Part shown: piece by piece, positions 7,948 through 59,470 of the stretch
How the letters are laid out: each line of letters starts with the position of its first letter
How positions within the stretch are numbered: the stretch's first letter is position 1
DNA from: Verrucomicrobia bacterium UBA2281
GTDB taxonomy: Bacteria > Verrucomicrobiota > Kiritimatiellia > CAIQIC01 > Lenti-01
Reading direction: 5' to 3'
NCBI GenBank assembly: GCA_002347655.1
Contig: DDWR01000024.1
Span: forward strand, 59,685-123,684
DNA: 64,000 nucleotides
Notes under the pieces: model-generated
Databases searched by the model: none
Told to the model about the DNA's origin: nothing
Seen by the model: only the letters and a program-made list of their open reading frames with translations
Made by a program: the position numbers and the translations under genes

Positions 7948-7976
7948 TTGCATCCACCCGCCCCCCTCCGTATAGT
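7948..7976 (+). promoter_or_regulatory. sigma70-like promoter for rpsO (TTGCAT-17nt-TATAGT)
   Basis: TTGCAT at 7948-7953, 17-nt spacer, TATAGT at 7971-7976, about 35 nt upstream of the rpsO TTG start. It shares the block CCCCCCTCCGT..TATAGTC with the promoter at 56343. Confidence 0.45.
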
Positions 7977-8011
7977 CCGGCCTTCAATCAACCAGAAGAC
8001 AAGCAGCAAAG

Positions 8012-14805: not shown

Positions 14806-14855
14806 TTTTACGTTCTACGTAAAACTCCGCGAAAGTTTTTACGTTCTACGTAAAA
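14806..14855. promoter_or_regulatory. two tandem copies of the 19-bp palindrome TTTTACGT-TCT-ACGTAAAA (candidate operator)
   Basis: Perfect 8-3-8 palindromes at 14806-14824 and 14837-14855, AT-rich in a high-GC genome. The same palindrome pair occurs at 59431-59470 in the opposite orientation. Confidence 0.5.
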
Positions 14856-33964: not shown

Positions 33965-34065
33965 GCGAGCCAGGATTCCCACGGCACCCGGAAGGACCGC
34001 CATACCGTTGCTGCCTTCCGGCCCTGGCGGGGTTTTGGCGGCATCCGTCGCATGGGACCCAACCC
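33965..34065 (-). ncRNA. ffs: probable SRP RNA (4.5S/ffs-type)
   Basis: Minus-strand sense CCGCCAGGGCCGGAAGGCAGCAACGGUAUGGCGG matches SRP domain IV (E. coli CAGGUCCGGAAGGAAGCAGCCAAGG) with a GGAA tetraloop; it sits immediately upstream of dnaX, the conserved ffs-dnaX arrangement. Exact ends are uncertain. Confidence 0.5.
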
Positions 34066-34182
34066 GCGACGACCGGCCCGGACGGAGCCCGGAACCGCCC
34101 GCCGAAACCCGTCCCGGCGAGCGTCGGACAACCTAGCCCCCCCCGAAGGCGAACGCAATTCTTTTTGCCGCTGCGCGGCCGC

Positions 34183-50330: not shown

Positions 50331-51206
50331 TCAGCCGTAGGCCAGGACGACCGGATTGCGCAGCGTGCCGATGCCGTCGATTTCGCACTCGACCACGTCG
50401 CCGTCGTGCAGCACCACGGGCGGCTTGCGCGCGGACCCGATGCCCCCCGGCGTGCCCATGGAGATCACGTCGCCCGGCTCCAGCGTCAGCACCCGGCTCA
50501 GGTCCGCCAGCACCATGTCGATGCGGAAGATCATCTGGGCGGTCTTGGATTCCTGGAGGATCTCGCCGTTGACGCGCTGGCGGATGCCCAAGGCGTGCGG
50601 CCGCTTGATTTCGTCGCGCGTGACGAGCCACGGGCCCATCGGCCCGAACGAGTCCGCGCTCTTGGCGAAGAACCACTGCAGGCGCGCCTTCTGGAGGTCG
50701 CGGTTGGTCACGTCGTTGAGCACCGCGTAGCCGGCGACGTGGGCCAGGGCCTCGCCTTCGTGGATATCGCGCGCGCGCTTGCCGATCACGACGGCCAGTT
50801 CGGCCTCGCCGTCCACGCGTTCCATGCCGGGCTTGAGCCGGATGGGATCGTGCGGGCCGCTCAGGGAGCCGGGGCTCTTGGAAAAATAGACGGGAAATTC
50901 GGGCACCTTGGCGTCGAATTCCTTGGCGTGGTCGCGGTAGTTCTTGCCCAGGCAGATGATCTGCCGCGGCGGCGCCACCGGCGGTCCCAGGCGGACGCCC
51001 TCGGCCGGGATCGTCTTGAGGTTCGGCTCTTTGAGCAGGGCCTGCAGGCGCTCGACGCCGTGCGCGGCCCAGAAGCGCGCGTCGTAGTCGGCGATGTCGA
51101 AGACCATGCCGCGCACGTCCAAGATCCGCGCAGGCTCCTTTTTCGTCGCGTCCAGCCAGATGCCCGGCCGTTCGGCGCCGGGCGCGCCGTATCTCACCAG
51201 TTTCAT
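50331..51206 (-). CDS. fumarylacetoacetate hydrolase (FAH) family protein
   Basis: Start ATG at 51206 (MKLVRYGAPGAERPGIWLD...), FAH fold motifs; 291 aa. Confidence 0.85.
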   Translation of the reverse strand: MKLVRYGAPGAERPGIWLDATKKEPARILDVRGMVFDIADYDARFWAAHGVERLQALLKEPNLKTIPAEGVRLGPPVAPPRQIICLGKNYRDHAKEFDAKVPEFPVYFSKSPGSLSGPHDPIRLKPGMERVDGEAELAVVIGKRARDIHEGEALAHVAGYAVLNDVTNRDLQKARLQWFFAKSADSFGPMGPWLVTRDEIKRPHALGIRQRVNGEILQESKTAQMIFRIDMVLADLSRVLTLEPGDVISMGTPGGIGSARKPPVVLHDGDVVECEIDGIGTLRNPVVLAYG

Positions 51207-52174
51207 CGGCACCCCTTCTTTCGGGCCGGTTGCGCATATGGGCCGAGAAAACGACTGCCATTCAAATGAATCAGGTGGTCGGGATGCTCCGCAACCCACA
51301 CCTCGGTTTCCCATGCCAATTCATTCCAGTATTTGGACATAATGGCGCGGGACGGAAACGCCGTGACGAAAACCAATCCCGCCATGGACTTTCCAAACAA
51401 CCTTTTCAACTCCTCGTGCCGCTTGGGATTCACCGGCCCATGACTGGTGACTACCTCGATCAACACCAGCCATTTTCGCCTTCCGTCATGCACGACCACG
51501 TCCGGCATCTTTCCGTGTTCATCGAGTTGGATGCCGAGCGTGCCGAAGCCCTTTTCATCCCGAAAAGCCCACTTTTTACCCGTGTCGCCGACATACAGCA
51601 AGTTGCCCCCCGGAACAAACCGAGAAGCAAATTGCTCCACCACCGCACGAATCAACAGGCTGTGCGCCCCTGGGGTCAAATGCAGAATGCGATTGCCCGC
51701 CATGCGAACCGGAACGCGCTTCAAATCGCGAATGTGCGCATAGCGATCCGCCAAAGTGCTTCTCTGCGCCCCGGAGGTCGCCACCATTTCCGTCCAGTTT
51801 TTCGATTTCCGCGCTCTCAGCAACCGCAACGCTTCAGGCGCGATTTTATAAACCGTTTTCGGACTGTTCACGGGCCGGGCGGGATTGTCCGGATTCGGCA
51901 AGACGAGTCCGGCCTGCACCAATTGATGAACAGAAAAACGCCGGAACGTTTCGCGTGTATTGGGCGCATATTGAACCCCGTAGCGATCACGCGCGAAGTC
52001 CATCATGGGCGTAATGCCAACCAGCGGCTCTGCAGCATCACACCACTTCTTGTCCGGATCGAGATCCAAGAGCGCCAACAAGCATAGCGCCGTTCGGTCG
52101 TTTTGCTGTTCTCGCGGCATTCCCATTGCCCGCAGGACCTGAACCGCCTCGCGGATTCTCGACTTAGCGTTCAT
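51203..52174 (-). CDS. type II restriction endonuclease, BsuBI/PstI family
   Basis: 323 aa; family-typical blocks (GNLLYVGDTGKKWAFRDEKGFGTLGIQLDEHGKMPDVVVHDGRRKWLVLIEVVTSHGPV); overlaps the upstream methyltransferase by 11 nt and the downstream FAH by 4 nt; lower GC (about 55%). Confidence 0.75.
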   Translation of the reverse strand: MNAKSRIREAVQVLRAMGMPREQQNDRTALCLLALLDLDPDKKWCDAAEPLVGITPMMDFARDRYGVQYAPNTRETFRRFSVHQLVQAGLVLPNPDNPARPVNSPKTVYKIAPEALRLLRARKSKNWTEMVATSGAQRSTLADRYAHIRDLKRVPVRMAGNRILHLTPGAHSLLIRAVVEQFASRFVPGGNLLYVGDTGKKWAFRDEKGFGTLGIQLDEHGKMPDVVVHDGRRKWLVLIEVVTSHGPVNPKRHEELKRLFGKSMAGLVFVTAFPSRAIMSKYWNELAWETEVWVAEHPDHLIHLNGSRFLGPYAQPARKKGCR

Positions 52175-53663
52175 TCAATTTCTCCACCAGCGAATCAATG
52201 CGCTCTTGGCTATATCGCCGGACTTTGGCCATCTTTTTCCCCAAGCCCGTCAATTGCCGGACGGATGGATAGGGCAATTTCCTTAAATCCGTCGCGTTGA
52301 CTTGGGTATGGCCGTTGAAGGCCCGGAAATAACGATCGACCGGCGTGGAATTCAAATATGCGCACAGGCCCCGCGCCAAGTCTTCATCTAAACCGTTTTT
52401 CGCGGTGTGGAACACGTTCAAATGATTTTCGAAGCCGACCCGTGCATATTCCGGCATGGCGGCGCGTGCAACGACGCTGGCCACGATCCGCCGCGACTCT
52501 TCCTTGGATGAAAGGCGGCGCGTCACGACATAGCACCCGGCCGGATACAACCAGCGGCGTGTTTCCGGAACGTCCATAATGGCGCACTTCTTTTTAGTCG
52601 AGCCCAAAGGCCAGCGCATTTTCCCGTCGGCGAAATGGCAGGGATAGACCAGTGGCACGGAGTTGCCGGCCGCCTGATCCAACAGGAATTCTCGAAGACG
52701 GAAATCCACGACCGGACCGGTGGAAACCTGAAGCCCCAGTTCATTCAGGTCGTGAGCGAAGGGCAACGTTGCTGCAACCGCATCGGCTGCCTGCGGAATC
52801 CGAATGAATTTCTCCGCATCGCCAGCATTCACGACGGAATCGAAAGGCAAAAACCGGATTTCGCAATCACCGGATGAATCATCCCGGCTGACGCTGATGC
52901 CCACCGGTCCCTGTCGGCCGCCGCGAACCAGTTTGATGATGACGTTTTCCTGTAGCACCCCGTCCGCCTTGAACGCCGCCGTACGGGACTCGAACAGGTG
53001 GATGCGTTCAATGGCCGCATTCCTTAAGACCATCTCGCGGAACGGCCGATAATAGGGCCCATTGCAAAAGCTGCGGGGCACGATGGCCACCAGTTGGCCG
53101 CCGGGCTTGAGGAGCTGCAACGCCACGGCAACGAATCCCGAATACAGGTTCACCGTCTCGATCCCCAAATCCCGCAGCCATTTCCGATGCGGGGAATCGC
53201 TGGCGATTTTCTTATAGGGGGGGTTCAAAATTGCGTGGGTGTAGGTGCCTGGATTCCCGAACTCGAAGGGACTGGCCACGGCCTGGATGAAATCACAAGG
53301 CTGAATGGCCACCTCCAACTTCCCACCTTGCCGCTCCACGTCCAAAGCGCAGCGACGTAGGAATGGACGCAAATATTCCTGCATGCCGGGATCCACCTCG
53401 TATGCCGTTAAAAACAACGGCATCCGCAGATCCGTTTTCTCGCTCCACGCCCGGATGAAAGCTCCGGAAAGCGCACCTTGCCCAGCACCGGCATCCAGCA
53501 CAAAGGTGGCATTGTCGCCCTTGAAGTCGAACAGCGAAGCCATGAAATCGGCAATCTCCAACGGCGTCATGATCTGGCCCAGTTCGGCCCTTTTCCCCGC
53601 ACGGGCGTCGAGTTCGACTGCTTGGGGACGTCGGGATTTTCGCTTGGACAAAATACCGATCAT
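52164..53663 (-). CDS. N6-adenine DNA methyltransferase (M.PstI/M.BsuBI-like)
   Basis: FxGxG SAM motif FVLDAGAGQGAL, catalytic NPPY (AILNPPYKKI); 499 aa; paired with the BsuBI/PstI-family endonuclease. Confidence 0.8.
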   Translation of the reverse strand: MIGILSKRKSRRPQAVELDARAGKRAELGQIMTPLEIADFMASLFDFKGDNATFVLDAGAGQGALSGAFIRAWSEKTDLRMPLFLTAYEVDPGMQEYLRPFLRRCALDVERQGGKLEVAIQPCDFIQAVASPFEFGNPGTYTHAILNPPYKKIASDSPHRKWLRDLGIETVNLYSGFVAVALQLLKPGGQLVAIVPRSFCNGPYYRPFREMVLRNAAIERIHLFESRTAAFKADGVLQENVIIKLVRGGRQGPVGISVSRDDSSGDCEIRFLPFDSVVNAGDAEKFIRIPQAADAVAATLPFAHDLNELGLQVSTGPVVDFRLREFLLDQAAGNSVPLVYPCHFADGKMRWPLGSTKKKCAIMDVPETRRWLYPAGCYVVTRRLSSKEESRRIVASVVARAAMPEYARVGFENHLNVFHTAKNGLDEDLARGLCAYLNSTPVDRYFRAFNGHTQVNATDLRKLPYPSVRQLTGLGKKMAKVRRYSQERIDSLVEKLNER

Positions 53664-54668: not shown

Positions 54669-54800
54669 GGTTCGGACCCTAGCAGACCCCACCCCCGCTG
54701 GCAACCGCCCGACCATTGACTTTCCCCTTTTCGCGGCATAGATTCCGGGCGTGAAAACCGCGGTGGACAACTCCGTCCCCGCCGTTTATGGAGACCGTTC

Positions 54801-55111: not shown

Positions 55112-56323
55112 ATGTGCTGCCCCCGCCACTCGTTCCTGCGCCGGCAGGGCGGCTGGCTCGGGCTCCTGCCGCTGCTGGCGCTGGCCGCCGGCTGCGCCAC
55201 GCCCGGCCGGCCCGGCGCCGAACGCTGGGCCTTGAAACGTCTGCCCGAAGTGCCGGCGGATTCGGCGCGCGCCGACCGCGCCATCGTCGCCGCCTTTTTC
55301 GCCGCCAACGGCGCGCGGCTCGACGCCCAGCAACTCGAGAAGATCCTGCCCCCGGCCGCGCGGCCCGCCCAGATGGACCGCAACGCCCTGCGCGCCGCGG
55401 CCCGTGCCAACCATCGCGTGCTGGCGGTCGTGAAGGCCGACGAGGCGGAGTTGGCCAAGTGGCTCGCCGGCAATCGGCCCTTGCTGGTGCTGCTGCCGCC
55501 GGGACTGCGCTACGAGCCCAACGCCGCCGCCTTCGTGCCCGTCGCCTGGGACCGGGCGAAAGGCACCGTGGACCTGCTCGACGGCAACGGGGAAATCCAG
55601 ACCTTGCCCGAGGCGGAATTCTTCGCGCGCCGCGAACCGCTCAAGCACGCCGCGCTGTGCCTGCTCAAGCCCGGCGCCCTGGAGCGCATGCAGCCCACGC
55701 GCGACCAGAAACTCGTGCTGGCGGATTTCTGGTTCGACCAGGGCTTCTACCGCCGCGCCCAGGCCGCCTATTCCGCCATCCAGGAAGAAGCCCCGCTGGG
55801 CACCACCGACGTGGACGCGCTCGTCGGCCAAGGCAACGTCCTCGTCCGCAAGAAGCGCTACAAGGAAGCGATTCCGGTTTTCCGCGCCGCCCTCGCTCTC
55901 GAACCGGACAATCCCCGGATCCTCAACAACCTCGCCTACTGCATGCTTCACGGCGGCGGCGAGTTGATGACCGCGCTGCGCCACGCCGCCAAGGCCGACC
56001 GGCTCGATCCCGAAAATCCGCTCGTCCTCGAAACGCTCGGCAGCATCAATCTCCGGATCGGCGACGCCCCCGCCGCCGCGCGCTATCTCGAACGGGCCTG
56101 GGCCCGCGCGCTCAAGCGCTCGCCGGAAATCCAGATCGCCATCATGGACCAGCTGGTCCGAGCCTGGATCGGCGCCCAGCGGCGCGATCTGGCCTGGCAG
56201 GTCGCCGAATACCGGCAGCGCGCCTTCCCCGAATACCGGTTCCCCAAGGACATTCTCCGCACCTTTCCCGCTCTCCGCCAACCCGTTAATCCCCTGCCCG
56301 AAAACCGGTCCGGGGCCAGATGA
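55112..56323 (+). CDS. TPR-repeat lipoprotein
   Basis: ATG at 55112 (MCCPRHSFLRRQGGWLGLLPLLALAAGC lipobox), multiple TPR units (FYRRAQAAYSAI..., YKEAIPVFRAALALEPDN...); 403 aa; the track shows this frame only inside the longer ORF 54788..56323. Confidence 0.7.
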   Translation: MCCPRHSFLRRQGGWLGLLPLLALAAGCATPGRPGAERWALKRLPEVPADSARADRAIVAAFFAANGARLDAQQLEKILPPAARPAQMDRNALRAAARANHRVLAVVKADEAELAKWLAGNRPLLVLLPPGLRYEPNAAAFVPVAWDRAKGTVDLLDGNGEIQTLPEAEFFARREPLKHAALCLLKPGALERMQPTRDQKLVLADFWFDQGFYRRAQAAYSAIQEEAPLGTTDVDALVGQGNVLVRKKRYKEAIPVFRAALALEPDNPRILNNLAYCMLHGGGELMTALRHAAKADRLDPENPLVLETLGSINLRIGDAPAAARYLERAWARALKRSPEIQIAIMDQLVRAWIGAQRRDLAWQVAEYRQRAFPEYRFPKDILRTFPALRQPVNPLPENRSGAR

Positions 56324-56342
56324 AAATATTCCGCCCCAAGGG

Positions 56343-56371
56343 TTGACACCCCCCCCTCCGTCCCGTATAGT
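56343..56371 (+). promoter_or_regulatory. consensus sigma70 promoter TTGACA-17-TATAGT
   Basis: TTGACA 56343-56348, 17-nt spacer, TATAGT 56366-56371; shares CCCCCCTCCGT...TATAGTC with the rpsO promoter; no ORF follows. Confidence 0.55.
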
Positions 56372-56377
56372 CGTTGG

Positions 56378-56552
56378 ACAAATCGGGGATTCGTTGATTT
56401 CCCGCCGTTCTTTTTTAAATCCATTTTAGCGACTTGCTGCTAACCACGCAGCAAGCAGATGGGACTACGGAGACCCCCCCATACTCCGCCCGTCTGCACT
56501 CATCCGTGCCAGGCTACCCCCCCCGATAACGCCTGGCACGGACCTTTTTTTG
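56378..56552 (+). ncRNA. candidate small RNA (about 175 nt) of unknown class
   Basis: Bounded by the consensus promoter and a strong intrinsic terminator (CCGTGCCAGGC-loop-GCCTGGCACGG + ACC + TTTTTTTT at 56504-56552); internal hairpin CTTGCTGC-TAACCAC-GCAGCAAG; no convincing ORF. Confidence 0.45.
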
Positions 56553-56565
56553 CCCATGCGAGATC

Positions 56566-56712
56566 AATCTTCAATAACCAATGTCCAATATCCAATGTTC
56601 AAGTGAACAGCCGGGGATGCCGGATTGGTTTCATTGGACACGGACAATCGCCTCGATCAACAACCGACCCGGGCTGTTCACTTGGAAATTGAACATTGAA
56701 TATTGGATATTG
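56566..56712. repeat. MITE-like element, full copy D (about 147 bp, terminal inverted repeats)
   Basis: Left arm caataaccaatgtccaatatccaatgttcaagtgaacagcc, right arm ggctgttcacttggaaattgaacattgaatattggatattgaatatt; GC-rich core between arms; no coding capacity. Confidence 0.6.
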
Positions 56713-56750
56713 AATATTCCGCCCCCGTTATTTCCGAGCCCCTGTTCCCC

Positions 56751-57656
56751 CTACAGCTTTTCCGGATACTCCCCCGCGGCGACAAGCGCGCGGATCGACT
56801 CCTGCACCGTCGCCTTGTCCTCGCGGTAGGTCACCCCGAACCACCGCGACGCCGTCTCCAGCACCTTCACGGTGCCCCGCCCCGACCGGATCAACCCGTC
56901 CACCACCGCCGGGATCGTAAATTCCTTCTTCGGCGACTGCCCGCCCTCGCCCCGCAGGAATTGCTCGAACGCCGCGTCCAGGTCCCCGAAGACCGACGGC
57001 ATGAACCCCCAGCAATTCATCGAAACCGGTTCCGCGCCCGTCAGCGCCGCCGCCGTTCCGCCGTCCGGTTCGTCCCACAGCGACCCGTCCGCGTGCCGCG
57101 TGATCTTCGTGCGCTCCTGGATGCCCGTCAGCAGCCGATCCGTCCCGCACAGGCACACCCCGCGGCTCACGCTGCCGTGTTCGGAGAGCGTCTGGTCCAG
57201 GCGGAACGCGACCATGCAGTGGCCCGCCGCGCGCTGCTCGCCGGTCAGGTGCGCCGCCAAGGCGCGGAACGAGGCCGCGCCGTAGAAATCGTCCGCGTTG
57301 ATCGCCGCGAACGGCTCCGCGATCTCGCGGCGTCCCGCTCGAATCGCGTGCGCCGTGCCCCACGGCTTCGCCCGGCCCGCCGGCACCGCGAAGCCCGCCG
57401 GCACGTCGGCCAGATCCTGGAACGCATAGGCGCAGGGGATCCGCGCCTCCCACTTCGCTCCGACCGTCTCCCGGAACGCCGCCTCGAGATCCCGCCGGAT
57501 CACGAAGACGACGCGGCCAAAACCGGCGCGGATCGCATCGAAGATGGAGTAATCCAGCACGATCTCGCCCGAGGGCCCCACCGGATCGATCTGCTTCAGT
57601 CCCCCGTAGCGGCTGCCCATCCCGGCGGCCAGGATCATCAAAGTCGGCTTGTTCAT
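56751..57656 (-). CDS. sugar-phosphate nucleotidyltransferase family protein
   Basis: N-terminal LMILAAGMGSRYGGLKQ (GxGxR NTP-transferase P-loop-like motif); 301 aa. Confidence 0.7.
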   Translation of the reverse strand: MNKPTLMILAAGMGSRYGGLKQIDPVGPSGEIVLDYSIFDAIRAGFGRVVFVIRRDLEAAFRETVGAKWEARIPCAYAFQDLADVPAGFAVPAGRAKPWGTAHAIRAGRREIAEPFAAINADDFYGAASFRALAAHLTGEQRAAGHCMVAFRLDQTLSEHGSVSRGVCLCGTDRLLTGIQERTKITRHADGSLWDEPDGGTAAALTGAEPVSMNCWGFMPSVFGDLDAAFEQFLRGEGGQSPKKEFTIPAVVDGLIRSGRGTVKVLETASRWFGVTYREDKATVQESIRALVAAGEYPEKL

Positions 57657-59376: not shown

Positions 59377-59430
59377 CCTACGCCCCCGCCCCGCCCCGGC
59401 CAAGCCCCGATTTGGCCCGGTTTTCCGGGG

Positions 59431-59470
59431 TTTTACGTAGAACGTAAAATGTTTTACGTAGCACGTAAAA
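59431..59470. promoter_or_regulatory. two tandem copies of the palindrome TTTTACGT-N3-ACGTAAAA (same motif as 14806-14855)
   Basis: ttttacgtagaacgtaaaa (59431-59449) and ttttacgtagcacgtaaaa (59452-59470), 55-95 nt upstream of the ppk2 start on the minus strand. Confidence 0.5.

What the first reader, a model, noticed from the sequence alone, without database searches (positions are those of the whole stretch)
56343..56552. Orphan consensus promoter + strong terminator bracketing a roughly 175-nt non-coding transcript
TTGACA-17-TATAGT is a perfect sigma-70 consensus. It is followed about 180 nt later by an 11-bp GC stem and T8. No ORF with an RBS lies between them, and the next gene is on the opposite strand beyond a MITE. 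Internal hairpins are present. I could not match the sequence to SRP, 6S, tmRNA or RNase P by eye. The promoter shares the unusual C-rich spacer/-10 block (CCCCCCTCCGT..TATAGTC) with the rpsO promoter, hinting at a strongly expressed housekeeping sRNA.
Basis: seen in the sequence. Interest (0 to 1): 0.55.

Follow-up and report, generated by a model that had tools for sequence, protein, structure and literature searches.

The report
New conserved small RNA, C-rich loops
The promoter-terminator pair marks a real, previously undescribed non-coding small RNA gene of about 175 nt in Kiritimatiellia bacteria; it is more conserved than its neighbouring genes, and its two cytosine-rich hairpin loops suggest it regulates messenger RNAs by pairing with guanine-rich sites, though neither its expression nor any target has been shown.

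Summary
A perfect TTGACA-17-TATAGT promoter (56343-56371) is followed by a 12-bp perfect terminator stem and a T7 run (56503-56552).

Homologues, complete with promoter and terminator, were found in 22 distinct sequences from related Kiritimatiellia metagenome contigs. They came from three routes: synteny with the NTP-transferase gene, synteny with the TPR gene, and a loop-motif scan.

The RNA has four hairpins. RNAalifold predicts them independently. 98.7% of pair cells are paired, and 6 pairs carry compensatory changes, against 0-1 in slid controls.

The HP2-HP4 core is 87-98% identical to the window. The adjacent coding DNA is only 58-92% identical.

No ORF is conserved: the ATG is lost in two lineages and there is no codon periodicity.

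No Rfam family reaches its threshold. The best bit score on both sequences tested is 6C RNA (18-22 bits against the 47 required). It aligns over its full length because HP3 and HP4 are two adjacent hairpins with C7 and C8-10 loops.

The most likely reading is a new sRNA family that works like the C-rich-loop sRNAs 6C and sX13. Expression and targets are untested. The supposed link to the rpsO promoter is at chance level.

The parts
56322..56342 (+). Promoter-upstream tract: an A/T-rich stretch followed by a G-rich stretch (GGG/GGGG) abutting the -35 box. It begins directly after the TPR gene stop codon (56321-56323).
   Evidence: In alignment A4 an A-rich run sits upstream in most homologues and G21/G23 before TTGACA are invariant or nearly so. 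A UP-element-like function is inferred, not shown.
56343..56348 (+). -35 hexamer TTGACA
   Evidence: The first five bases (TTGAC) are invariant in all 20 aligned homologues; the final A is nearly invariant, with one sequence (L104) reading TTGACT.
56349..56365 (+). 17-nt spacer. It is C-rich in this genome (C8 run at 56349-56356) but variable among homologues.
56366..56371 (+). -10 hexamer TATAGT. In most homologues it is TATAGT, TATATT, TATGGT or TATTGT.
56378..56383 (+). Predicted transcription start (about 56377-56378) and the conserved 5' leader ACAAAU.
   Evidence: The position is inferred from the 7-nt distance to the -10 box. CAAAU is conserved in most homologues. It has not been mapped experimentally.
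56384..56404 (+). Hairpin 1. The 5' arm CGGGGA has an invariant GGGG. The loop and 3' arm vary in sequence and length.
   Evidence: MFE fold. The hairpin re-forms in nearly all homologues folded singly. RNAalifold pairs the GGGG.
56405..56433 (+). Single-stranded A/U-rich linker (UCUUU ... AAUUU(U/G)NAC), moderately conserved.
56434..56454 (+). Hairpin 2: a 7-bp stem UUGCUGC/GCAGCAA with the invariant loop UAACCAC (56441-56447).
   Evidence: One pair changes C-G to U-A on both sides in 4 sequences. The loop was not part of the search pattern yet is invariant in all 22 sequences.
56455..56497 (+). Hairpin 3: a 9-bp outer stem, a 5-bp inner stem and an 11-nt apical loop ACCCCCCCAUA (56473-56483; C7 run at 56474-56480).
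   Evidence: Five pairs show compensatory changes. The loop CCCCCCAUA is unchanged in all sequences, including the 6 distinct ones found by synteny alone.
56498..56502 (+). Conserved single-stranded linker A(C/U)UCA (AUCC, one base shorter, in the most divergent homologue L124).
56503..56542 (+). Hairpin 4, the intrinsic terminator stem. It is 12 bp and perfect, with a 16-nt apical loop UACCCCCCCCGAUAAC (C8 run at 56517-56524; C8-C10 in homologues).
   Evidence: Ten of 12 pairs never vary. One sequence (L114) has two U-U mismatches.
56543..56552 (+). ACC plus the T7 run (T6 in most homologues): the transcript 3' end.
55112..56323 (+). Upstream co-directional TPR-repeat gene with a lipoprotein-like N-terminus. 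It is the most constant neighbour of the sRNA.
   Evidence: Gene call and Pfam TPR hits. A TPR homologue lies directly upstream in most sRNA loci, down to 50% protein identity.

Best explanation
WHAT IT IS. This is a stand-alone gene for a non-coding small RNA of about 175 nt. The family is found in a clade of Kiritimatiellia from wastewater and digester-type metagenomes. It is absent from Rfam and from the literature searched.

TRANSCRIPTION. A near-consensus sigma-70-type promoter drives it, and an intrinsic terminator ends it. The same terminator probably also ends the upstream TPR-gene mRNA.

STRUCTURE. The RNA forms four hairpins. HP1 has a fixed GGGG arm. HP2 has the fixed loop UAACCAC. 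HP3 presents C6-7AUA in its apical loop. HP4, the terminator, presents C8-10GAUAA in its apical loop.

HOW IT MOST LIKELY WORKS. The two C-rich loops probably act as seed regions. They would pair with G-rich stretches (GGGG-type ribosome-binding or start-codon-proximal sites) in several mRNAs and change their translation or stability. G-C-rich loop-to-single-strand pairing of this kind needs little or no chaperone help. This is the mechanism shown for actinobacterial 6C sRNA and Xanthomonas sX13.

SHOWN HERE. The gene anatomy, its conservation, the covariation-supported structure and the non-coding nature are shown.

INFERRED. Transcription, strength of expression, trans-action, the seed role of the loops and the targets are inferred.
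For: ANATOMY. The promoter is the only perfect match in the window. The terminator is a 12-bp perfect stem plus T7. The fold has z = -6.8.

HOMOLOGUES FROM THREE INDEPENDENT ROUTES.
- Downstream of NTP-transferase homologues of 80-95% identity.
- Downstream of TPR homologues of 63% and 50% identity.
- From a loops-only pattern scan of metagenomes: 21 hits, all full-length with the promoter.

PROMOTER CONSERVATION. The TTGAC of the -35 box is invariant in all 20 aligned sequences (one has T for the final A) and the -10 box is conserved in most, while the spacer varies.

STRUCTURE. 98.7% of pair cells are paired. Six pairs carry changes on both sides (32 cells), against 0-1 pairs in the slid controls. 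No column shuffle out of 500 reaches the observed covariation score. RNAalifold predicts the same four hairpins on its own.

CONSERVATION. The core is 87-98% identical to the window, against 74-92% for the NTP-transferase DNA and 58-90% for the TPR DNA.

NON-CODING. The longest recurrent ORF (23 aa) loses its ATG in L106 (GCG) and L120 (ACG). Variable columns fall 8/7/8 on codon positions 1/2/3. Length changes in the C-run shift the frame.

C-RICH LOOPS. They are invariant even in the 6 distinct sequences found by synteny alone.

RESEMBLANCE TO 6C. The Rfam 6C model aligns over its full length to HP3 plus HP4 and has the highest bit score of any family on both sequences tested.

MECHANISM PRECEDENT. 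The 6C C-rich loops bind G-rich RBS regions without chaperones (PMC6486639). The sX13 C-rich loops repress mRNAs carrying G-rich motifs near start sites, independently of Hfq (PMC3771888).
Against: - No expression data exist, so the transcript is predicted only.
- No target was identified. The duplex scan of the 64-kb window gave no convincing translation-initiation-region hit, and the G-run sites found are mostly promoter spacers or antisense positions.
- The near-invariance of the HP2 and HP4 stems (16 of 19 pairs never vary) is more than simple base-pairing sRNAs need. It would also fit recognition by a protein.
- The invariant GGGG of HP1 has no role in this model.
- The 21 metagenome hits were selected for exact loop motifs, so for those sequences loop invariance is by construction.
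- The 6C match is far below the family threshold (18-22 bits against 47).
Confidence: 0.5

Rival explanations
1. A protein- or machinery-binding housekeeping RNA rather than a base-pairing regulator. It would sequester or scaffold a conserved protein, in the manner of 6S, CsrB or Y RNA. The invariant HP2, HP4 and linker sequences would be the recognition surface.
For: Conservation of primary sequence is extreme, including in stems that could covary freely. HP4 has 10 of 12 pairs never varying and HP2 has 6 of 7. The core is more conserved than the flanking coding DNA, even where the TPR protein is only 50% identical. The promoter is a conserved consensus. The GGGG in HP1 is invariant although its pairing partner varies.
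Against: There is no similarity to 6S, Y RNA, CsrB/Rsm or any protein-binding RNA family in Rfam. There is no 5'/3' closing stem or central bubble. There are no repeated GGA-loop motifs. Known C-loop sRNAs such as 6C are also very conserved, at 91% among mycobacteria, so high conservation does not discriminate between the two readings.
Confidence: 0.22
2. Primarily a cis-acting 3' end of the upstream operon (BON-TPR). On this reading it is a structured 3' UTR and terminator that stabilises or terminates that mRNA, with no trans function of its own.
For: The element begins 20-70 nt after the stop codon of a co-directional gene, with no room for another terminator. It follows a TPR homologue in most loci.
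Against: It has its own -35/-10 pair, whose core (the TTGAC of the -35 box and the TA..T of the -10 box) is conserved in nearly all homologues. That would be pointless for a mere 3' UTR. In L094/L118 the upstream gene is an unrelated HD-domain gene, yet the RNA is intact. A terminator does not need three further conserved hairpins or invariant loops.
Confidence: 0.1
3. It encodes a small protein, or is dual-function. One candidate is the 23-aa ORF MGLRRPPHTPPVCTHPCQATPPR starting at the ATG at 56459. Another is the 11-aa ORF at 56394-56429.
For: The 23-aa ORF recurs in 13 of 16 distinct sequences and contains a C-x3-C pattern.
Against: The ATG is replaced by GCG in L106 and ACG in L120. It lies inside a stem and has no Shine-Dalgarno sequence. 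Variable columns show no third-position excess (8/7/8). The C-run length polymorphism (8, 9 or 10) changes the frame and the stop. The substitutions that do occur are pairwise compensatory in RNA stems and non-synonymous in the ORF. The 11-aa ORF lies in a region with indels that are not multiples of three.
Confidence: 0.03
4. A chance juxtaposition of a promoter-like and a terminator-like sequence, or part of a mobile element.
For: The region is intergenic and lies next to a MITE-like inverted repeat.
Against: The whole unit is conserved in 22 distinct sequences at syntenic positions, whether or not the adjacent inverted repeat is present. There are no copies elsewhere in the window or in the other loci. 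There are no matches in viral contigs, phage records or plasmids.
Confidence: 0.01

Closest known systems
6C RNA (Rfam RF01066; the 6C/B11 sRNA of Mycobacterium, Corynebacterium and Streptomyces)
   Same: Both have two adjacent GC-rich hairpins, each with a run of six or more cytosines in the apical loop. In both, the second hairpin is followed by a U-run. Both are highly conserved in primary sequence, are driven by a housekeeping-type promoter and occur in high-GC organisms. The 6C covariance model aligns over its full length (positions 1-75) to HP3 plus HP4. It has the highest bit score of any family on both the window and the most divergent homologue. For 6C the loops are shown to bind G-rich RBS regions without a chaperone (PMC6486639).
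   Different: The score is 18-22 bits against a gathering score of 47 (E about 0.5-2), so homology is not supported. This RNA is roughly twice as long, with two extra 5' hairpins (HP1, HP2) and an A/U-rich linker. Its loops have different flanks (CCCCCCAUA and CCCCCCCCGAUAA). The host is Kiritimatiellia (PVC group), not Actinobacteria.
sX13 of Xanthomonas
   Same: It is a multi-hairpin sRNA whose apical C-rich loops (4-5 C) repress mRNAs carrying G-rich motifs near the start codon. It is independent of Hfq, abundant and conserved, and occurs in a G+C-rich genome without a strong consensus RBS (PMC3771888).
   Different: There is no sequence relationship. No Rfam family other than the sub-threshold ones listed matched at E<=10. 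sX13 has three C-loops with shorter C-runs and an unstructured 5' end. Here there are two C-loops with much longer C-runs and a structured 5' domain.
RsaE/RoxS of Firmicutes and the UCCC-loop sRNAs of Staphylococcus (from general knowledge; sX13's similarity to sRNAs of S. aureus and H. pylori is noted in PMC3771888)
   Same: C-rich unpaired motifs are used as anti-Shine-Dalgarno seeds. The sRNAs are strongly conserved and each has its own promoter and terminator.
   Different: They are unrelated in sequence and fold, have shorter C motifs and come from different phyla. No Rfam match was found here.
sRNAs that share the terminator of the upstream mRNA ('type I' 3'-end sRNAs with their own promoter, such as DapZ and MicL; from general knowledge, reviewed in PMC9438474 as listed)
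   Same: The sRNA promoter lies right at the 3' end of a co-directional protein gene, and the two transcripts would share one terminator.
   Different: Here the promoter lies just after, not inside, the upstream coding sequence. The RNA also persists when the upstream gene is replaced (L094).

Membership tests
6C RNA (RF01066) | Two adjacent hairpins, each with at least six consecutive C in the loop | tested here: met
   The HP3 loop has C7 (56474-56480) and the HP4 loop has C8 (56517-56524). Homologues have C6-7 and C8-10.
6C RNA (RF01066) | Covariance-model score at or above Rfam's gathering score (47 bits) | tested here: not met
   18.0 bits (E 1.4-2.3) on the window and 21.8 bits (E 0.49) on L124. 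Both are full-length alignments but far below 47. There was no hit at all under the gathering threshold.
6C RNA (RF01066) | Occurrence in Actinobacteria (high-GC Gram-positives) | tested here: not met
   The flanking proteins and their homologues are labelled Kiritimatiellia/Kiritimatiellae by their sources.
6C RNA (RF01066) | C-rich loops bind G-rich mRNA sites and regulate them | not testable with these tools
   This needs reporter fusions or interactome data. The in-window duplex scan was inconclusive.
Intergenic trans-acting bacterial sRNA (generic class) | Own promoter and intrinsic terminator, conserved among relatives | tested here: met
   The TTGAC of the -35 box is invariant and the terminator stem and T-run are virtually invariant.
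Intergenic trans-acting bacterial sRNA (generic class) | Conserved secondary structure supported by compensatory changes | tested here: met
   98.7% of cells are paired. Six pairs change on both sides, against 0-1 in slid controls. RNAalifold agrees. The support comes mainly from HP3, plus one pair in HP2. HP4 never varies, so its pairs are uninformative.
Intergenic trans-acting bacterial sRNA (generic class) | No conserved protein-coding potential | tested here: met
Intergenic trans-acting bacterial sRNA (generic class) | Detected transcript of the predicted size | not testable with these tools
   No RNA-seq or metatranscriptome mapping was available.
Intergenic trans-acting bacterial sRNA (generic class) | Identifiable mRNA targets complementary to the seed | tested here: inconclusive
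   Only 64 kb of the genome was available. The top duplexes were not at clear translation start regions. The G-tract leader of the PPK2 gene (59377-59415, minus strand) is a candidate, but it is not conserved in all sRNA-bearing relatives.
6S RNA | 5' and 3' ends paired in a long closing stem around a large central bubble; a match to the Rfam 6S models | tested here: not met
   The fold is four independent hairpins and the 3' end is a terminator hairpin. No 6S hit appears even at E<=10.
SRP RNA / tmRNA / RNase P / tRNA | A match to the family model | tested here: not met
   The SRP RNA lies elsewhere, at 33965-34064 on the minus strand. ARAGORN finds no tRNA or tmRNA. No Rfam hit falls on this locus.

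The most novel reading that the evidence does not exclude
This may not be an ordinary base-pairing regulator. It could be a lineage-wide housekeeping RNA of a new class in Kiritimatiellia. On this reading, nearly invariant stems, loops and a 5' GGGG element are read by a conserved protein or by the translation or transcription machinery. The twin poly-C loops would then be a design that arose independently of actinobacterial 6C, or that is very anciently related to it.
Probability: 0.2. Interest if true: 0.65.

Novelty: new member of a known kind. Interest (0 to 1): 0.42.

Why it matters
I know of no described regulatory RNA for Kiritimatiellota, and the paper search found none. These are abundant anaerobic polysaccharide degraders in digesters, guts and sediments.

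This locus provides a well-delimited, covariation-supported sRNA family with an obvious testable feature, its two poly-C loops.

If the loops work as in 6C and sX13, this would be a further independent occurrence of C-loop sRNAs. It would support the idea that G-C-rich loop pairing is a general, chaperone-light solution in high-GC bacteria.

The covariance model built here can be used directly to annotate these genomes.

Tried and rejected
- Rfam at gathering thresholds over the whole window: only the SRP RNA elsewhere.
- Rfam at E<=10 on 601, 185 and 117 nt: only sub-threshold hits (6C, tfoR, miRNA and hammerhead-like on the terminator hairpin). The mir-3155 hit belongs to the neighbouring inverted repeat, not the sRNA.
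- tRNA and tmRNA scan: nothing.
Only one close relative came back (L007, 84%), and it lacks the sRNA within the 516 nt available.
- Synteny at greater distance: the sRNA is absent next to NTP-transferase homologues of 79%, 77% and 72% identity (L100, L101, L098). It is also absent after TPR homologues of 56% and 53% (L125, L126). L100's contig does carry it, next to its TPR gene (L123).
- Search for paralogues with the covariance model in the window and in about 1 Mb of loci: none.
- Viral contigs, phage records and plasmids: no match.
- Small-ORF hypothesis: rejected.
- rpsO promoter link: rejected as chance.
- Target search by G-run listing and RNAduplex over the window: no convincing start-site target.
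- The motif AAATCGGGG shared with the PPK2 leader: 2 hits against 0.94 expected, not significant.
- Literature search for the sequence and for Kiritimatiell* plus sRNA: nothing.

Full report
1. WHAT IS IN THE SEQUENCE

The window carries TTGACA (56343-56348), a 17-nt spacer and TATAGT (56366-56371) on the plus strand. This is the only perfect instance in 64 kb. Allowing one mismatch there are two sites, against 0.02 expected from shuffles.

About 130 nt downstream lies a perfect 12-bp inverted repeat, 56503-56514 with 56531-56542. It encloses a 16-nt loop and is followed by ACC and seven T (56546-56552). The simple terminator scan missed the site only because it allows loops of at most 8 nt.

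The predicted transcript (about 56378-56552) folds into four hairpins at -67 kcal/mol. Shuffled sequences give -41.4 +/- 3.8, z = -6.8, and 0 of 200 shuffles fold as well.

The flanks are as follows:
- A TPR-repeat gene ends at 56323 on the same strand.
- An NTP-transferase gene (56751-57656) sits on the opposite strand.
- An inverted repeat with 51-nt arms (56566-56718) lies between the sRNA and the NTP-transferase gene.

2. WHERE IT COMES FROM

Homologues of both flanking proteins are labelled Kiritimatiellia or Kiritimatiellae by their sources. The identical locus occurs in JGI and Logan metagenome assemblies. One related contig is named as a wastewater metagenome.

3. IS IT CONSERVED?

Three routes were used.

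(a) Contigs encoding NTP-transferase homologues. Homologues of 95, 88, 81 and 80% identity all carry the element just downstream of that gene. This holds even where the gene on the other side is different, as in L094 with an HD-domain gene.

(b) A metagenome scan with a pattern built only from the two loop motifs and a T-run, leaving all stems free. It returned 21 contigs. All 21 are full-length homologues that include the promoter.

(c) Contigs encoding TPR homologues. The element directly follows the TPR gene in L123 (63% protein identity). L123 is the same contig as L100, where the NTP-transferase neighbourhood lacks the sRNA. It also follows the TPR gene in L124, at only 50% protein identity.

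The sRNA was not found at the syntenic position in several cases. Next to NTP-transferase homologues these are L007, L100, L101 and L098. After TPR homologues they are L125 and L126.

In total there are 22 distinct sequences. Six of them, besides the window itself, were found without any reference to the RNA sequence.

4. PATTERN OF CONSERVATION

- The TTGAC of the -35 box is invariant in all 20 aligned sequences; one sequence (L104) has T instead of the final A. The -10 box stays TATAGT, TATATT, TATGGT or TATTGT in most.
- The promoter spacer varies.
- An A-rich tract and a G-run precede the -35 box.
- The 5' domain (HP1 plus linker) is only about 55% identical on average.
- The HP2-HP4 core averages 91% identity over all pairs, with a minimum of 85%.
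- Compared with the window, the core is 87-98% identical. The NTP-transferase DNA is 74-92% identical and the TPR DNA 58-90%.

5. STRUCTURE

On the MAFFT alignment A4, which was not fitted to any structure, 98.6% of pair cells are standard pairs. Six pairs carry changes on both sides (32 cells). Sliding the 3' partners by 1-3 columns gives 0-1 such pairs and 33-43% pairing. No column shuffle out of 500 reaches the observed covariation score.

The 18-sequence alignment A6 gives the same result. On it, RNAalifold independently predicts the same four hairpins, including the GGGG arm of HP1.

The informative changes are unevenly distributed:
- Four pairs are in the inner stem of HP3.
- One pair is in the outer stem of HP3.
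- One pair is in HP2.
- HP4 never varies, apart from two U-U mismatches in one contig, so its pairs are neither for nor against the structure.

HP1 is unusual. Its 5' arm (GGGG) is invariant, while its loop and 3' arm change freely and still pair.

6. CODING POTENTIAL

A 23-aa ORF starts at the ATG inside the 5' arm of HP3 and recurs in 13 of 16 distinct sequences. Several points argue against it:
- The ATG is GCG in L106 and ACG in L120.
- Variable columns are spread 8/7/8 over the three codon positions.
- The C-run length (8, 9 or 10) shifts its frame.
- The changes that occur are non-synonymous in the ORF yet compensatory in the RNA.

The 11-aa ORF in the 5' domain lies in a region with indels that are not multiples of three. 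The RNA is therefore non-coding.

7. COMPARISON WITH KNOWN FAMILIES

At Rfam gathering thresholds the only hit in the window is the SRP RNA at 33965-34064. At E<=10 on short stretches, the highest bit score on both the window and the most divergent homologue (L124) is 6C RNA (RF01066). Both are full-length alignments covering model positions 1-75:
- 18.0 bits (E 1.4-2.3) on the window.
- 21.8 bits (E 0.49) on L124.

The gathering score is 47 bits.

The alignment places the first 6C hairpin on HP3 and the second on HP4, with C-run on C-run. This confirms an architectural resemblance that I had suspected from the loops, so the test is partly circular. It does not establish membership.

6S, tmRNA, RNase P and Y RNA give nothing. 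No paper in the searchable library contains the sequence, and none combines Kiritimatiell* with sRNA.

8. MECHANISM

The two longest unpaired stretches are apical loops made of C6-7AUA and C8-10GAUAA. They are invariant in every homologue, including those ascertained by synteny.

In actinobacterial 6C, the two C-rich loops bind G-rich ribosome-binding regions such as AGGGGGG of panD. They regulate many mRNAs without Hfq or ProQ (PMC6486639). In Xanthomonas sX13, C-rich loops repress mRNAs with G-rich motifs near the start codon, independently of Hfq (PMC3771888).

I therefore take the same mode of action as the most likely one here, at about 50% confidence.

I could not support this with targets. 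Only 64 kb of the genome is available, and the best predicted duplexes are not at clear start regions. The PPK2 leader (59377-59415, minus strand) carries four G-tracts directly before its ATG. It also has a 12/13 match to the sRNA 5' end. However, the short motif is not statistically enriched, and the G-tracts are not kept in all sRNA-bearing relatives.

9. RIVALS

The main rival is a protein- or machinery-binding RNA, at about 0.2. Three observations exceed what base-pairing needs:
- The HP2 and HP4 stems are nearly invariant.
- The GGGG of HP1 is invariant.
- The core is more conserved than the neighbouring genes.

A purely cis-acting 3' UTR and terminator of the TPR operon is unlikely, at about 0.1, for two reasons. 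The element keeps its own consensus promoter, and it persists behind an unrelated gene.

The geometry does imply that its terminator also ends the upstream mRNA. The promoter starts 20-70 nt after the upstream stop codon, with no room for another terminator.

Small-protein and chance explanations are essentially excluded. A mobile-element origin is unlikely:
- There is a single copy per locus.
- The position is syntenic.
- There are no viral, phage or plasmid matches.

10. THE rpsO HINT

The 11-mer CCCCCCTCCGT is indeed present in front of a TATAGT upstream of rpsO. Three points weigh against a real link:
- It is offset by 5 nt relative to the -10 box.
- It occurs at chance frequency on this C-rich strand: 3 observed against 3.7 expected.
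- It is not conserved in the homologous sRNA promoters.

11. VERDICT

This is a real, well-delimited non-coding sRNA gene that is absent from Rfam and from the searchable literature. It represents a new family within the known kind of C-rich-loop sRNAs. Its conservation is unusually strong. Its expression, targets and partners remain to be shown.

Noticed in passing
window 56566-56718: An inverted repeat with 51-nt arms (82% complementary) built from AT-rich CCAAT/ATTGG-like units. It lies between the sRNA terminator and the NTP-transferase gene. It has only one copy in the window. Its left end (GAGATCAATCT) seems to be present in L117 and L102. L087 and L091 have different sequence there, which suggests an insertion polymorphism. 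Rfam's mir-3155 'hit' at 56600-56688 is simply this hairpin.
   Followed up: partly
window 14807-14854 and 59432-59469: The palindrome TTTACGTnnnACGTAAA occurs as tandem pairs at two intergenic sites: 4 copies against 0.00 expected. One pair sits just upstream of the PPK2 leader. This could be an operator or a REP-like element.
   Followed up: partly
L098 3990-4150; L100 4190-4290; L007 6930-7100: In relatives that lack the sRNA at this position, the space after the NTP-transferase gene holds arrays of a different palindrome, TTTTCCAA(T/C)GGTTGGAAAA or TTTCCACAnnATGGAAA.
   Followed up: no
window 59377-59415 (minus strand): The leader of the PPK2 (polyphosphate kinase 2) gene reads CAAATCGGGGCTTGGCCGGGGCGGGGCGGGGGCGTAGG-ATG. 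It has a 12/13 match to the sRNA 5' end, followed by four G-tracts (G-quadruplex-like) directly before the start codon. It is kept in L087 and L091 but not in L094 or L096. It is a candidate target of the C-rich loops, but unproven.
   Followed up: partly
window 7950-7978 (+), about 34120-34160 (-), about 54672-54705 (-): Three other putative promoters also have a G or C homopolymer run in the spacer between a TTGnnn box and a TAnnnT/CTAGGT-like box: rpsO, SRP RNA and RNase HII. The RNase HII ATG lies only about 7 nt after the -10-like box, which suggests a leaderless mRNA.
   Followed up: no
window 33965-34064 (minus strand): Bacterial small SRP RNA, 69.8 bits against a gathering score of 40.
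   Followed up: yes
window about 51203-53663 (minus strand): Two restriction-modification genes (Eco57I-like, and BsuBI/PstI-like) lie between the RNase HII and FAA-hydrolase genes here and in L001/L002. They are absent in L087 and L091, where those two genes are adjacent. This looks like an R-M island insertion.
   Followed up: no
whole window: There is a strong strand asymmetry of homopolymer runs. G runs of 5 or more occur 17 times on the plus strand and 85 times on the minus strand, so C-runs abound on the plus strand. This is in line with the negative GC skew.
   Followed up: no
L114 198-371: One homologue has two adjacent U-U mismatches in the otherwise invariant terminator stem (CCAGG/CCUGG becomes CUUGG/CCUUG). 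This could be a decaying copy or an assembly error.
   Followed up: no
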